12,885 bases of DNA, from IMG/VR virus record IMGVR_UViG_2657245081_000004. One strand, 5' to 3'. This stretch comes from a virus. Lineage: Duplodnaviria; Heunggongvirae; Uroviricota; Caudoviricetes. A program made the position numbers and the translations under genes. Below, piece by piece: positions 1 through 11,439 of the stretch. The first letter of the stretch is position 1. Each line of letters starts with the position of its first letter. A model generated the notes under the pieces. That model saw nothing but the letters and a program-made list of their open reading frames with translations. It was not told the origin of the DNA and made no database searches.

Positions 1-1392
1 TCAAGAATAGCCGCAAAATGTTGTCATTACAACAAGGCGGCTATATGACGCTCGCGCAGNNNNNNNNNNTCCAGACTCATAGCGGGATAAAAGCTGACCG
101 TTCGGATCAACCGCCAGTGCATCCCTGTAATGCTCCCGAACCCTCTGAGCTTTTTCGCTGACACTCATCGCTGTGAATNNNNNNNNNNACATCCATTTTC
201 CGTATACCTGAAATACCATTTGCGCATCTGCATGGCCCATCTGGTTTGCTATAAATGCCGGGTTAGCACCAGCTGTCAGCGACCAGCAGGCATAAGTATG
301 TCTCGACTGATATGATTTTCGATGGCGGAGTCCGGCACGTTTTATCGCTGCGTCCCACATCTGCCTTATTGAGTCAACGGTAAAATGGTCACCATAATTT
401 TTTACTCTCGCTGACACTTCAGGTTGAAAAACAAAGGTGCATTTATGTTTTTCTGTTCTGCCATACTCTCTGAGGTGAACATCAATGATATGCTCTTTGC
501 TCAGTCTCGTTAATGTCATCTGACTCCGGAGAGCGTCGATTGCTGGCTTAATAAGATGAATGACCCGATTGGTTCCCGCCTGTGTTTTTGGTACCGTGAA
601 ACGGTCTTTTGCTAAATTTCTCCTGATCATCATTGTTCCATTTTTCAGATCTATGTCCTCCCATCCAAGTGCACACAGCTCACCAGGGCGAACGCCAGTA
701 TAAACAGAAACACACCATAAATTTTTGGCTTGCTGATTTCTGCACGCATCGATAAGACGGATGAATTCCTCCCGCGAAAGAGGATCCGGAATGGTTCTTG
801 ATTCCTTTAATGGCGAGATCCCCTTAAACGGGTTATCTGCCAGGTAACCGTTATCAACACCAAACTGGAACACGGCGTTAAGATTTGTCATGTAATTATT
901 TACAGTTACAGCCGATCTCCCTGGTTGTGTAACAATATAGTTACTTTTGGGGATCTGGTATCCAGTCAGTAGCTCTTTACGAACCTCCAGTAATTTTTCT
1001 TTATTAATCGATGAGGCAAGATTTTTTTCACCGATTATGCTCAGGATATTTTTGATGACGGCACGGTATGTGTTGAGTGATGTTTTTGCGACTTCAGTTT
1101 CTTTCAGTGCCAGAAATTTTTCAGCCAGTTCTTTTATGGTTAAATCTTGTCGGGTCTCACCAAATTTTTCCAGATTGCGTGAGGAGGGAAACTGTTTTGC
1201 ATAGTCGAAAACACCAGTTTTTATTGCGTAACAAACAGAGGCGCGTAGCTCACCTGCAACGCGCCTGTTTTTTGCTGTGTCAGGAACCCCCAGGTTTTCC
1301 CTGACTCTTACGCCTTTATAAACAAACCAGATACGTAATTTCCCTCCATGGTTTTCCACGCCTGTCGGATATTTCATTTCAATTTCTCTCAT
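1..1392 (-). CDS. int: Phage integrase, tyrosine recombinase family (463 codons; two 10-nt N runs inside the 3' end)
   Basis: Translation has integrase catalytic-domain motifs (RHTYACWSL...MGHADAQMVFQVYGKW with the putative nucleophile Tyr). Frame is kept across both N runs and the stop is at 1-3. Alternative start at 1377 (MKYPTG...) has a slightly better purine-rich upstream region. Confidence 0.85.
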   Translation of the reverse strand: MREIEMKYPTGVENHGGKLRIWFVYKGVRVRENLGVPDTAKNRRVAGELRASVCYAIKTGVFDYAKQFPSSRNLEKFGETRQDLTIKELAEKFLALKETEVAKTSLNTYRAVIKNILSIIGEKNLASSINKEKLLEVRKELLTGYQIPKSNYIVTQPGRSAVTVNNYMTNLNAVFQFGVDNGYLADNPFKGISPLKESRTIPDPLSREEFIRLIDACRNQQAKNLWCVSVYTGVRPGELCALGWEDIDLKNGTMMIRRNLAKDRFTVPKTQAGTNRVIHLIKPAIDALRSQMTLTRLSKEHIIDVHLREYGRTEKHKCTFVFQPEVSARVKNYGDHFTVDSIRQMWDAAIKRAGLRHRKSYQSRHTYACWSLTAGANPAFIANQMGHADAQMVFQVYGKWMXXXXFTAMSVSEKAQRVREHYRDALAVDPNGQLLSRYESGXXXXARASYSRLVVMTTFCGYS

Positions 1393-4299: not shown

Positions 4300-4491
4300 T
4301 TAAAGACCTGCCGGGATTTCGATATTATCCTGGTGAATAACTTTATCGACCGGGTAACAGTTACCGGGAATTTTCTGTTCGGTTGCTGCAGTCATACACT
4401 CCTGCATTGTCCTGTGAACACTGACTGCAATATCAACTGGCTCTCCGGAAACAAGAAAAACTGTCAGAACAAGCACAAATGCTGAATTCAT
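4300..4491 (-). CDS. ydfD: YdfD, small lysis-inducing protein with N-terminal hydrophobic segment (63 aa)
   Basis: MNSAFVLVLTVFLVSGEP... matches remembered Qin YdfD; AAGGA about 9 nt upstream of ATG 4491; start overlaps dicB stop (ATGA). The track's longer N-terminus is an upstream extension. Confidence 0.8.
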   Translation of the reverse strand: MNSAFVLVLTVFLVSGEPVDIAVSVHRTMQECMTAATEQKIPGNCYPVDKVIHQDNIEIPAGL

Positions 4492-4676
4492 TGTGCACAT
4501 CCTTTTGGCATCAGACGTAAACGAGCCAGCATTGAAACAATGCATATTTTATTTAATAGCTCCCGTTCTTGTTTTCTCTTGTTAATGGCATCTTCAGTAA
4601 ATACTGGGTTACTGATAGTGACACCAATTTCAAAACAACCTTCAGACGTATTAACGTTTGGTAATAACGTTTTCAT
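4488..4676 (-). CDS. dicB: DicB cell-division inhibitor (62 aa)
   Basis: MKTLLPNVNTSEGCFEIGVTISNPVFTEDAINKRKQERELLNKICIVSMLARLRLMPKGCAQ matches remembered DicB; GAGGA upstream of ATG 4676; lies immediately downstream of DicF as in Qin. Confidence 0.9.
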   Translation of the reverse strand: MKTLLPNVNTSEGCFEIGVTISNPVFTEDAINKRKQERELLNKICIVSMLARLRLMPKGCAQ

Positions 4677-4845
4677 TATCGCGTCCTCAACAATGAATTT
4701 TGTGATGCAGTGCCTGGTGCCTCCAGGTGACGTTAACCAGTTAACAATTAACGCCGGATACAGAGAATCCACCCATAACACTGTTTTTGGTTTTAACTGT
4801 TCCGCGTGCGCTCAGCCGCATTCACCACATCACAAAATTCACTTT

Positions 4846-4903
4846 AAAAAGGGCGGCAGAGCAGTCACGGAGTAAAACTGATACCGCCAAACGTCACCAG
4901 AAA
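4846..4903 (-). ncRNA. dicF: DicF small RNA (ftsZ-targeting) with its intrinsic terminator
   Basis: Minus-strand sequence UUUCUGGUGACGUUUGGCGGUAUCAGUUUUACUCCGUGACUGCUCUGCCGCCCUUUUU matches remembered DicF; ends in a GGCGG/CCGCC stem plus U5. Confidence 0.85.
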
Positions 4904-10229: not shown

Positions 10230-10399
10230 GCTACCTGGCGCAGAACGGGCTGATAAGTATGGGGAATGTTTTACGATGAATATTTAGACTAAAGAGTTTG
10301 TAACGCTATGTAAGTGATTTTTTCTGGTTTAGATATTTATATGTCCGGCCAAATTGAGGTGTGTTTAAATGTAATTGCACATTGATTGTAGGAGGAATA

Positions 10400-10579
10400 A
10401 TGAAAAACGCATTGCAGTTTTTGTTTGTTGCGTTCTGGTTGTTCGTATCATGTATGCCCATCATCTTCACAGCAAGGTATATGGAAAAAGTTGATGTTTT
10501 GATATTAATATTTGGATATATAAATGCCCTTTTTTTAGGGGTGTTCATGGCGGTCATGTGCATTGAATACTGGCGGTAA
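10400..10579 (+). CDS. Small hydrophobic protein (59 aa) with two predicted transmembrane helices, in an AT-rich island
   Basis: MKNALQFLFVAFWLFVSCMPIIFTARYMEKVDVLILIFGYINALFLGVFMAVMCIEYWR; GGAGG 4 nt upstream of ATG 10400; surrounding DNA (about 10260-10620) is visibly AT-rich. Confidence 0.55.
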   Translation: MKNALQFLFVAFWLFVSCMPIIFTARYMEKVDVLILIFGYINALFLGVFMAVMCIEYWR

Positions 10580-10634
10580 ATACAGCGAACGCCATTGGTT
10601 TAGTTGGATATTTACTGTGCCGGACAAAAACGGT

Positions 10635-10662
10635 TTGCGGGGAAATCTTAGTTAAGTAGAAT
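10635..10662 (+). promoter_or_regulatory. Candidate hok mRNA promoter (TTGCGG-N16-TAGAAT)
   Basis: Hexamers seen in sequence about 170 nt upstream of hok, the distance expected for the long structured hok leader. Confidence 0.3.
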
Positions 10663-10734
10663 GACTGCGGGTGCTTGAGGCTATCTGTCTCAGGCATGAA
10701 CACCAAAAGGCAGATAGAGAAAAGCCCCAGTTAA

Positions 10735-10800
10735 CATTACGCGTCCTGCAAGACGCTTAACATTAATCTGAGGCCATATCTATGCGACACATAGAGATTA
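10735..10800 (-). ncRNA. Putative Sok-like antisense RNA region (approximate bounds)
   Basis: Minus-strand promoter-like TTGACC (complement of 10821-10826), 16-nt spacer, GCTAAT, reading across the mok-like start; position matches hok/sok architecture. Ends not determinable. Confidence 0.35.
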
Positions 10801-10841
10801 GCCTCTTACGGACCGAAAGGTCAAGGAGAAGCAGGCTATGA
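10782..10841 (+). CDS. Short leader ORF (19 aa) ending in ATGA overlap with the hok start; mok-like coupling frame
   Basis: ATG 10782 with GAGG 8 nt upstream; stop TGA overlaps the hok ATG. Confidence 0.35.
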   Translation: MRHIEISLLRTERSRRSRL

Positions 10842-10993
10842 AGCAGCAAAAGGCGATGTTAATCGCCCTGATCGTCATCTGTTTAACCGTCATAGTGACG
10901 GCACTGGTAACGAGGAAAGACCTCTGCGAGGTACGAATCCGAACCGGCCAGACGGAGGTCGCTGTCTTCACAGCTTACGAACCTGAGGAGTAA
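10838..10993 (+). CDS. hokD: Hok-family type I toxin (51 aa), HokD/RelF-like
   Basis: Hand translation MKQQKAMLIALIVICLTVIVTALVTRKDLCEVRIRTGQTEVAVFTAYEPEE matches remembered HokD; not in the ORF track (below cutoff). Confidence 0.85.
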   Translation: MKQQKAMLIALIVICLTVIVTALVTRKDLCEVRIRTGQTEVAVFTAYEPEE

Positions 10994-11062
10994 GAGACCT
11001 GGCGGGGGAGAAATCCCTCGCCACCTCTGATGTGTCAGGCATCCTCAACGCACCCGCACGTA

Positions 11063-11088
11063 ACCCGCTTCGGCGGGTTTTGTTTTTT
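11063..11088 (+). terminator. Rho-independent terminator downstream of hok
   Basis: ACCCGC-TTCG-GCGGGT hairpin followed by TTTTGTTTTTT. A 9-bp GAAA-tetraloop hairpin lies upstream at 11002-11023. Confidence 0.7.
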
Positions 11089-11160
11089 CCTGGCATTCTG
11101 GTTTACAATTCGCACGCCAGCCTGAACAACTGGCACCTGCTGCGCCAGCAGAGACAACCG

Positions 11161-11439
11161 ATGGCGCACGATACCAAATTACACAATTCTAATGATTCTG
11201 CCGTCTTTGCCAGTAGGTGCGGACGGCGTTTTCACGCATTCAAATCAGACTGGTTCCAGCATCCTCCATGCACTGAAGAGCAGGCGGAATGGATAATTCA
11301 GTGTTACCGCAGGCGCGGATACGAGGTTAAGAAAGCTCTTAGCCTCGACTACCGTCACTGGATAATCTCAGTCAGACTCCCTTACTCCGAACGCCCACCG
11401 CGTTCATCCCGCACATACCAGCAACGGATCTGGAGGTAA
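11161..11439 (+). CDS. Hypothetical small protein (92 aa) in the position of Qin rem
   Basis: Start taken at ATG 11161 because the track's upstream extension runs through the hok terminator; weak RBS. Rem assignment is by synteny only. Confidence 0.5.
   Translation: MAHDTKLHNSNDSAVFASRCGRRFHAFKSDWFQHPPCTEEQAEWIIQCYRRRGYEVKKALSLDYRHWIISVRLPYSERPPRSSRTYQQRIWR

What the first reader, a model, noticed from the sequence alone, without database searches (positions are those of the whole stretch)
10635..11088. Complete hok/sok-type type I toxin-antitoxin locus in the accessory region
A HokD-like 51-aa toxin, a short coupled leader ORF, a minus-strand promoter positioned to make antisense RNA across the leader start, and a 3' terminator preceded by a GAAA hairpin are all present. 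The leader ORF is only 19 codons and ends at the hok start rather than overlapping most of hok, which differs from the plasmid R1 mok arrangement as I recall it.
Basis: partly seen in the sequence, partly recalled or inferred. Interest (0 to 1): 0.45.

Follow-up and report, generated by a model that had tools for sequence, protein, structure and literature searches.

The report
Intact hokD hok/sok toxin-antitoxin locus
This is an ordinary, complete copy of the well-known hok/sok "host-killing" toxin and antisense-RNA antitoxin module (the hokD type). It sits in a lambda-like prophage of E. coli, and its unusually short leader reading frame is a common natural allele, not a new arrangement.

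Summary
Window 10635-11088 holds a complete hok/sok-type type I toxin-antitoxin locus.

- **Toxin:** the 51-aa ORF (10838-10993) is 100% identical to E. coli K-12 HokD/RelF and matches Pfam HOK_GEF.
- **Leader:** it matches Rfam RF01794 at 106.7 bits.
- **mRNA fold:** the predicted ~420-nt mRNA closes through a 5'-3' (tac/fbi) helix. That fold is supported by covariation across 31 hok mRNAs.
- **Switch:** removing the 3' end in silico flips the fold to tac/ucb plus mok-SD/dcb.
- **Antisense RNA:** a ~70-nt Sok-like RNA with its own promoter lies over the mok start.

This is not unique. The mok-to-hok distance across relatives is 56, 57 or 58 nt. About 14% of prophage copies carry this allele, and the junction is exact in up to 783 E. 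coli records. Published R1 mutagenesis shows that only the first 19 mok codons matter.

The same 521 nt occur at 100% identity in other E. coli genomes, where RefSeq annotates hokD. K-12 carries a version cut by relBE. Expression, toxicity control and biological role are inferred, not shown.

Verdict: already known, low interest.

The parts
10635..10662 (+). hok promoter: -35 TTGCGG (10635-10640), 16-nt spacer, -10 TAGAAT (10657-10662). It is weak by consensus.
   Evidence: Read from the sequence. In 81 of 82 distinct related loci a -10-like hexamer lies exactly 6 nt upstream of the conserved GGG that starts the mRNA, although the upstream sequence diverges. The generic scan did not report it: it matches 8 of 12 and the threshold is 9.
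10669..11088 (+). Full-length hok mRNA, about 420 nt, from the inferred transcription start G10669 to the terminator T-run.
   Evidence: Position 1 of Rfam model RF01794 aligns to 10669. The MFE fold is -175.2 kcal/mol with z -7.7. On 31 homologous mRNAs 86.4% of cells are paired against 40-47% in slid controls.
10669..10680 (+). tac element (GGGUGCUUGAGG). It pairs with fbi in the full-length mRNA and with ucb in the 3'-truncated mRNA.
   Evidence: MFE folds. Pair column 4-427 shows UA in 19 sequences and CG in 11.
10722..10730 (+). ucb / anti-SD (AAGCCCCAG). It sequesters the mok SD in the full-length form and pairs with tac in the truncated form.
   Evidence: Helix 4 shows AU in 19 and GC in 12 sequences at columns 77-119.
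10716..10788 (-). Predicted Sok antisense RNA (~70 nt): a single-stranded 5' tail, then a long hairpin, then a U-run. It is complementary to the mok SD and start codon.
   Evidence: The fold gives -29.8 kcal/mol and z -4.4, with a 13-nt free 5' tail, a hairpin and UUUUCUCU. The ends are inferred from the promoter position and the U-run and have not been mapped.
10795..10824 (-). sok promoter: -35 TTGACC (10824-10819), 18-nt spacer, -10 TAATCT (10800-10795). An alternative reading is GCTAAT with a 16-nt spacer.
   Evidence: Its position corresponds to TTGCGC-17-TATCCT of the IncFII plasmid hok/sok copy and to TTGCCT-17-TAACCT of most hokD-type loci. The generic scan did not report it.
10770..10773 (+). 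mok Shine-Dalgarno sequence (GAGG).
   Evidence: Nearly invariant across the 31 aligned mRNAs. It is paired with ucb in the full-length fold and with dcb (GCCUC, 10801-10805) in the truncated fold.
10782..10841 (+). mok leader ORF: 19 codons (MRHIEISLLRTERSRRSRL) plus TGA. The stop overlaps the hok ATG as ATGA.
   Evidence: The R1-like frame contains no start codon here.
10824..10828 (+). hok Shine-Dalgarno sequence (AGGAG), 9 nt upstream of the ATG.
   Evidence: Sequence. Conserved as AAGGAG in the alignment.
10838..10993 (+). hok (hokD) toxin gene, 51 aa.
   Evidence: 100% identical to K-12 HokD. Pfam PF01848 at 82.9 bits. RefSeq annotates 'type I toxin-antitoxin system toxin HokD' on identical DNA.
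10975..10981 (+). UUACGAA motif containing Tyr47 codon UAC (A10977). This is the predicted TadA A-to-I editing site, which would recode Tyr to Cys.
   Evidence: TACGAA is invariant in all 31 aligned hok mRNAs. PMC12214031 reports 6% editing of K-12 hokD mRNA. Not tested here.
11000..11023 (+). 10-bp hairpin with a GAAA loop. It is the predicted protective 3' stem-loop of the processed (truncated) hok mRNA.
   Evidence: Helix 17 is 86.5% paired, with 4 pairs changed on both sides. The role is inferred from R1 (PMC9841398).
11043..11055 (+). fbi element (CCUCAACGCACCC), which pairs with tac.
   Evidence: helix 1, 90.5% paired.
11062..11088 (+). Intrinsic terminator of the hok mRNA.
   Evidence: 7-bp stem with 5 G-C pairs, a UUCG loop and a T-run.

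Best explanation
[quoted passage not shown] It lies between the replication genes and the Q antiterminator gene. The mechanism below is inferred from the R1 paradigm, with in-silico support here.

1. A weak promoter makes a ~420-nt hok mRNA.
2. The mRNA is locked shut by pairing of its 5' end (tac) with its 3' end (fbi). The mok Shine-Dalgarno sequence is held by an upstream anti-SD (ucb).
3. Slow 3' trimming back to the GAAA hairpin removes fbi. The 5' end then re-pairs with ucb, and the mok translation start becomes accessible.
4. A stronger promoter on the opposite strand makes a short, unstable ~70-nt Sok RNA. Sok pairs with the mok start region, blocks mok translation and triggers cleavage of the duplex.
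5. If Sok is lost, ribosomes translate the 19-codon mok and stop at the UGA that overlaps the hok AUG. They open the hok start site or reinitiate there.
6. The resulting 51-aa HokD membrane toxin depolarises the cell.

Sok could be lost through transcription shut-off, loss of the element or phage attack.
For: **Shown by sequence or computation**
- Toxin identity and family.
- Leader RNA family match at 106.7 bits, E 6e-24.
- Full-length MFE closed by tac/fbi, z -7.7.
- The same structure holds on 31 homologues: 86.4% paired against 40-47% slid, and 39 pairs with compensatory changes against 8-22 slid.
- The 3'-truncated RNA refolds in silico to tac/ucb plus mok-SD/dcb.
- The Sok candidate has a free 5' tail, a terminator hairpin and a U-run, z -4.4.
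- Promoter hexamers sit at conserved positions on both strands.
- There is a terminator.
- A 19-codon mok is coupled to hok by ATGA.
- The locus is widespread and its sequence is stable. The 521-nt region is at least 80% covered in 3814 of 5426 complete E. coli genomes, and the exact 76-nt mok-hok junction occurs in up to 783 records.

**From the literature**
- In R1, only mok translation up to the hok start is required, and stop codons after the hok start are tolerated (PMC9841398).
Against:
- Both promoters fall below the generic scanner's threshold.
- Intact chromosomal hokA, hokB and hokC loci were reported not to give post-segregational killing or rifampicin activation (Pedersen and Gerdes 1999, as summarised in bioRxiv 10.1101/2025.08.07.668861). 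An intact sequence therefore does not guarantee activity.
- The short mok is a minority allele. Relative to the 57-nt in-frame majority it could be a tolerated frameshift that lowers Hok output.
Confidence: 0.85

Rival explanations
1. The locus is structurally intact but biologically silent. It would be a neutral passenger of the prophage that never releases toxin. Possible causes are that the hok mRNA is not activated, or that the 19-codon mok ending at the hok start couples poorly.
For: [quoted passage not shown] The short-mok form is the minority: 11 of 80 loci and 3 of 45. Decayed copies exist in the same species, namely the K-12 relBE truncation and L008, which lacks tac.
Against: All regulatory elements are present and fit the covarying family structure. 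The allele is kept without disruption in hundreds of genomes. The same 56-nt arrangement arose independently in hokC-type loci of E. ruysiae and E. whittamii, each with an intact hok. An ATGA overlap is a standard arrangement for translational coupling (general knowledge).
Confidence: 0.13
2. Hok is translated directly from its own strong SD (AGGAG) without help from mok. The 19-codon ORF would be a vestige, and Sok would act only by triggering mRNA decay.
For: The hok SD is a good match at a good distance. The Mok peptide sequence and frame are not conserved among relatives.
Against: A GAGG followed by an ATG lies 56-58 nt upstream of the hok ATG in 41 of the 45 surveyed loci. That conservation is hard to explain without use. 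In every predicted fold the hok start region is paired with the 3' part of the coding region (helix 8, 90% paired). In R1, mok start-codon mutations abolish Hok (PMC9841398).
Confidence: 0.02

Closest known systems
hokD (relF) locus of E. coli K-12 cryptic prophage Qin
   Same: The 51-aa toxin is identical. The 3' UTR is nearly identical, including the GAAA hairpin, fbi and terminator. The prophage family is the same (DicF, dicB, ydfA-C, DUF968 and Q nearby).
   Different: In K-12 the homology stops about 17 nt upstream of the hok ATG, at the relBE junction. K-12 therefore lacks the hok promoter, tac, ucb, mok and sok. PMC6379469 describes this as relBE integration into an ancestral ~70-codon ORF. 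The window carries the uninterrupted regulatory region.
hok/sok (parB) of plasmid R1
   Same: The parts list and order match: weak hok promoter, tac, ucb, mok SD and start targeted by Sok, sok promoter inside the mok 5' region, hok SD, Hok/Gef toxin, 3' hairpin, fbi and terminator. There are 19 mok codons upstream of the hok start, as in R1 (PMC9841398).
   Different: R1 mok is 70 codons and reads on through hok in another frame, with a 58-nt start-to-start distance calculated from PMC9841398. Here the distance is 56 nt and mok stops at the hok ATG. The toxins are divergent in sequence. R1 is on a plasmid and this locus is in a prophage.
Majority hokD-type prophage loci and hokC/mokC (gef)
   Same: The leader architecture is the same, and for the hokD type the toxin is identical.
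   Different: In those loci the mok ATG is 57 nt upstream and in frame with hok. This gives a 69-70-codon ORF that is an N-terminally extended Hok (66 of 80 prophage loci; 31 of 45). The window has a separate 19-aa leader peptide.
hokW-sokW of Stx2 prophage Sp5 (E. coli O157:H7 Sakai)
   Same: It is a prophage-borne hok/sok with a 51-aa toxin and a ~71-nt region of Sok complementarity. Experiments show it to be a type I TA system dependent on RNase III and Hfq (PMC8621323).
   Different: It is a different locus at a different prophage position: the right arm, at ECs_1245, annotated as a 70-aa MokC-like ORF. No HokD-like sequence lies between the replication and Q genes of Sp5.

Membership tests
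[quoted passage not shown] | Small hydrophobic toxin of the Hok/Gef family | tested here: met
   Pfam PF01848 at 82.9 bits against a cut-off of 22. 100% identical to K-12 HokD.
[quoted passage not shown] | Conserved structured 5' leader of the hok mRNA (Rfam RF01794) | tested here: met
   106.7 bits against a gathering score of 59, full model 1-157, window 10669-10840.
[quoted passage not shown] | Long-range 5'-3' pairing (tac/fbi) that closes the full-length mRNA | tested here: met
   Present in the MFE fold. Helix 1 is 90.5% paired across 31 homologues, with a UA-to-CG compensatory change in 11 of them.
[quoted passage not shown] | Refolding of the 3'-processed mRNA to tac/ucb, exposing the mok start site | tested here: met
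   The MFE of 10669-11027 shows tac paired with AAGCCCC and the mok SD paired with dcb. This is in silico only. Processing itself was not testable.
[quoted passage not shown] | Leader ORF (mok) that starts about 19 codons upstream of hok and whose translation reaches the hok start | tested here: met
   ATG 10782, 19 codons, with the stop overlapping the hok ATG. Coupling itself cannot be tested with these tools.
[quoted passage not shown] | Cis-encoded antisense Sok RNA with its own promoter, complementary to the mok translation start region | tested here: inconclusive
   Promoter-like hexamers sit at the homologous position and the RNA has a Sok-like shape. The generic scan did not report the promoter, and no transcript data were available.
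[quoted passage not shown] | Toxicity of Hok and its suppression by Sok through RNase III cleavage of the duplex | not testable with these tools
   HokD toxicity is reported in bioRxiv 10.1101/2025.08.07.668861. Sok-dependence has been shown only for R1 and hokW (PMC9841398, PMC8621323).
R1-type mok arrangement (70-codon mok overlapping hok out of frame) | mok reads through the hok start in the +1 frame and ends near the hok stop | tested here: not met
   That frame has a stop at 10798 and no start codon after it. The mok-hok distance is 56 nt, against 58 nt in R1 (PMC9841398).
K-12-type truncated hokD (relBEF) | relE immediately upstream, with the leader missing | tested here: not met
   The window keeps the full leader. 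K-12 homology begins about 17 nt before the ATG.

The most novel reading that the evidence does not exclude
The 19-codon mok ending in ATGA may be a functionally distinct coupling mode. It would work by strict termination-reinitiation and produce a free 19-aa leader peptide. The majority allele instead makes an N-terminally extended Hok. Under this reading, the roughly 14-20% of E. coli hokD-type loci with this allele would express Hok at a different level or with different kinetics. That would be a natural tuning of toxin output that has apparently not been described for the hokD type.
Probability: 0.25. Interest if true: 0.3.

Novelty: already known. Interest (0 to 1): 0.1.

Why it matters
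It matters little beyond correct annotation. RefSeq labels only the hokD coding sequence on identical DNA. The mok leader, the Sok RNA and the mRNA boundaries given here could be added.

The locus is a clean example of the uninterrupted form of the hokD system, which is truncated in the K-12 reference strain.

The survey also shows that the mok frame is free to vary (56, 57 or 58 nt) while its first 19 codons are fixed in length. This agrees with the R1 mutagenesis conclusion that only translation up to the hok start is needed.

Tried and rejected
1. **hokW-sokW.** I first assumed the experimentally studied hokW-sokW of Sakai prophage Sp5 was the same locus in the same place. The stretch between the Sp5 DNA methylase and antirepressor genes showed no homology. 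tblastn with HokD found nothing in Sp5 coordinates 1250000-1275000. hokW lies in the right arm with a 70-aa MokC-like ORF. It is a cousin, not the same locus.
2. **Generic promoter scan.** It found no promoter on either strand in 10500-11200. I did not treat this as absence, because comparative positioning across 82 distinct loci supports both promoters.
3. **R1 stand-in.** I used an IncFII plasmid copy (L139) that encodes a Hok identical to the sequence I recalled for R1. Its mok-hok distance is 57 nt, not the 58 nt that follows from the R1 numbering in PMC9841398. It is therefore not the published R1 allele, and I used it only as a plasmid representative.
4. **Naming searches.** Literature searches for sokD, mokD, hokX and sokX returned nothing specific to this locus type.
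5. **Frame survey.** My first survey ignored frame 0 and made many loci look as if they had no mok. I corrected this.
6. **Register of the tac/fbi helix.** The distal half is offset by one base between the window type (bulged C) and the Photorhabdus type. The fixed-register count therefore understates pairing for columns 7-12.

Full report
**What is in the sequence**

The plus strand between 10635 and 11088 carries, in order:
- a -35/-10 pair, TTGCGG-16-TAGAAT (10635-10662);
- a G-rich start, GGGUGCUUGAGG, at 10669;
- a structured leader;
- a GAGG Shine-Dalgarno sequence (10770-10773) and an ATG at 10782 opening a 19-codon ORF;
- an AGGAG (10824-10828) and the 51-codon hok ORF (10838-10993);
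- a 10-bp hairpin with a GAAA loop (11000-11023);
- the sequence CCUCAACGCACCC (11043-11055);
- an intrinsic terminator (11062-11088).

The TGA of the 19-codon ORF (10839-10841) overlaps the hok ATG (10838-10840) as ATGA. The frame that plasmid R1 uses for its long mok has a stop at 10798 and no start codon after it.

**Is it more than chance?**

- The toxin is 100% identical to HokD/RelF of E. coli K-12. It matches Pfam HOK_GEF at 82.9 bits.
- Rfam family RF01794 is named sok but models the sense-strand leader of the hok mRNA. It matches 10669-10840 end to end at 106.7 bits, E 6e-24.
- The 420-nt RNA from 10669 to 11088 folds with z = -7.7. Its minimum-energy structure is closed by pairing of the first 12 bases with 11043-11055.
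- I aligned this RNA with 30 other hok mRNAs. They came from Escherichia, Kluyvera, Pseudocitrobacter, Citrobacter, Pantoea and Photorhabdus, plus an IncFII plasmid. I then projected the window's fold onto the alignment.
- 86.4% of cells form pairs, against 40-47% when partners are slid by 1-3 columns. 39 pairs change on both sides, against 8-22 in the slid controls.
- In the 5'-3' helix, one pair is U-A in 19 sequences and C-G in 11.
- The structure was derived from one member of the alignment, which inflates the paired percentage. The compensatory counts are less affected by this.

**The switch and the antisense RNA**

Folding the RNA cut after the GAAA hairpin (10669-11027) changes the minimum-energy structure. 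The 5' end now pairs with AAGCCCC (10722-10728). The mok SD moves from that anti-SD to GCCUC (10801-10805). This is the tac/ucb and SD/dcb rearrangement described for R1 in PMC9841398.

On the minus strand, TTGACC-18-TAATCT (10824-10795) occupies the position of TTGCGC-17-TATCCT in the plasmid copy, and of TTGCCT-17-TAACCT in most hokD-type loci. An RNA starting a few bases downstream and ending at the U-run (about 10788 to 10716) has three features:
- a 13-nt free 5' tail;
- one long hairpin;
- a UUUUCUCU tail, with z -4.4.

It covers the mok SD and start codon. The generic promoter scan reported neither promoter. The comparative signal is strong for the hok promoter: a -10-like hexamer lies exactly 6 nt before the conserved GGG in 81 of 82 distinct loci. 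Transcript ends are inferred, not mapped.

**Where it sits**

The window is the left arm of a lambdoid prophage. Its features, in order, are:
- integrase and excisionase;
- an 835-aa protein with a C-terminal exonuclease domain;
- DicB;
- DicF RNA (4851-4902, minus strand, 76.7 bits);
- an S24-family repressor;
- replication genes and a DUF977 protein;
- the hok/sok locus;
- a DUF968 protein and the Q antiterminator.

The 521 bases around hok are 100% identical to several E. coli chromosomes. At least 80% of the region is covered in 3814 of 5426 complete E. coli genomes. RefSeq annotates 'type I toxin-antitoxin system toxin HokD' there, but no mok or sok.

In K-12 Qin the similarity begins only about 17 nt before the hok ATG, next to relE. 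This agrees with the published view that relBE inserted into an ancestral hokD locus (PMC6379469). The window therefore holds the uninterrupted form.

**The short mok in context**

I measured the distance from the conserved SD-ATG of mok to the hok ATG.

| Set | 57 nt (in frame with hok) | 56 nt (window type) | 58 nt (R1-like frame) | No leader or recognisable mok |
|---|---|---|---|---|
| 80 IMG/VR prophage loci with identical HokD | 66 | 11 | 0 | 3 |
| 45 loci: the window, 43 from species-representative genomes, one plasmid | 31 | 3 | 8 | 4 |

Notes on the table:
- At 57 nt, mok is in frame with hok and forms one 70-codon ORF, as annotated for mokC.
- In the second set the counts total 46, because one frame-1 locus (L028) is also among the four that the tally assigns to the no-mok class.
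- The three 56-nt loci in the second set are the window and hokC-type loci of E. ruysiae and E. whittamii, which have an unrelated leader peptide.

The exact 76-nt mok-hok junction of the window occurs at 99% identity or better in up to 783 E. coli records. So 19 codons upstream of hok is the constant feature, and the frame after that point is free.

This fits the R1 data. Mutations in the mok start codon and stop codons upstream of the hok start abolish toxicity. Stops after the hok start do not (PMC9841398). The short mok is therefore a common allele that is probably functional. An ATGA overlap suits termination-reinitiation; that point is general knowledge and was not tested here.

**How it most likely works, and what is not shown**

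The best-supported mechanism is the canonical one:
1. The full-length mRNA is stable but closed.
2. Slow 3' trimming activates it.
3. Sok blocks mok translation and destroys the mRNA.
4. Hok is made through mok-coupled translation once Sok decays.

Steps supported here by sequence and in-silico folding are the parts, their order, the two alternative folds, and the covariation. Steps inferred from R1 and hokW are transcription, processing, RNase III cleavage, coupling and killing.

The biological role in a prophage is open. The candidates in the literature are retention of the element, exclusion of other phages, and help with lysis or release as reported for hokW (PMC8621323). Reports that intact chromosomal hok loci did not show post-segregational killing (summarised in bioRxiv 10.1101/2025.08.07.668861) keep a 'silent passenger' reading alive at about 13%.

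**Verdict**

The finding is real and correctly interpreted. It is a known system in a known place, present in most E. coli genomes. The one unusual detail is a frequent natural variant that published mutagenesis already explains. Novelty: already known. Interest: low.

Noticed in passing
window 4851-4902 (minus strand): A full-length DicF small RNA (Rfam RF00039, 76.7 bits, E 7e-16) lies next to a DicB gene (4491-4781, Pfam DicB). This marks the prophage as Qin/dic-type. Unlike K-12 Qin, this element has an apparently intact 463-aa integrase (4-1392, minus strand) and an excisionase (1415-1663).
   Followed up: partly
window 10975-10981 (A10977): The hok Tyr47 codon UAC sits in UUACGAA, which mimics the tRNA-Arg(ACG) anticodon loop. 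TACGAA is invariant in all 31 aligned hok mRNAs. K-12 hokD mRNA is reported to be A-to-I edited at 6% (PMC12214031). Editing would recode Tyr47 to Cys.
   Followed up: partly
window 10230-10580: An AT-rich stretch (35-38% GC, against 53-58% downstream) lies just upstream of the hok promoter. It holds an unannotated hydrophobic 59-72-aa ORF (10361/10400-10579, plus strand) with no Pfam match. It could be a small membrane-protein moron or non-coding filler.
   Followed up: no
L139 (IncFII plasmid NZ_CP128973.1), locus 333-727: This plasmid hok/sok copy encodes a Hok identical to the R1 sequence I recalled. Its mok ATG is 57 nt upstream and in frame with hok, giving a 71-codon ORF. The published R1 numbering implies 58 nt. 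The mok frame therefore varies even among plasmid copies with the same toxin.
   Followed up: partly
L008 (E. coli ECMA0423, CP178302.1), upstream of hok: This hokD-type copy lacks the tac sequence GGGTGCTTGAGG at the mRNA start, although hok and the 3' UTR are intact. It is probably a decayed or deregulated copy.
   Followed up: no
L020 (Acinetobacter idrijaensis, 275-bp contig), L025 (Xanthomonas pisi, 431-bp contig), L058 (Candidatus Scatousia MAG): Very short contigs in non-enterobacterial assemblies encode HokD at 96-100% identity. L025 also carries an E. coli-type leader. These look like E. coli contamination of the assemblies and not like horizontal transfer.
   Followed up: no
window 11161-11439 (plus strand): A 92-aa ORF immediately downstream of the hok terminator has no Pfam match. 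RefSeq annotates it only as a hypothetical protein. It precedes the DUF968 gene.
   Followed up: no
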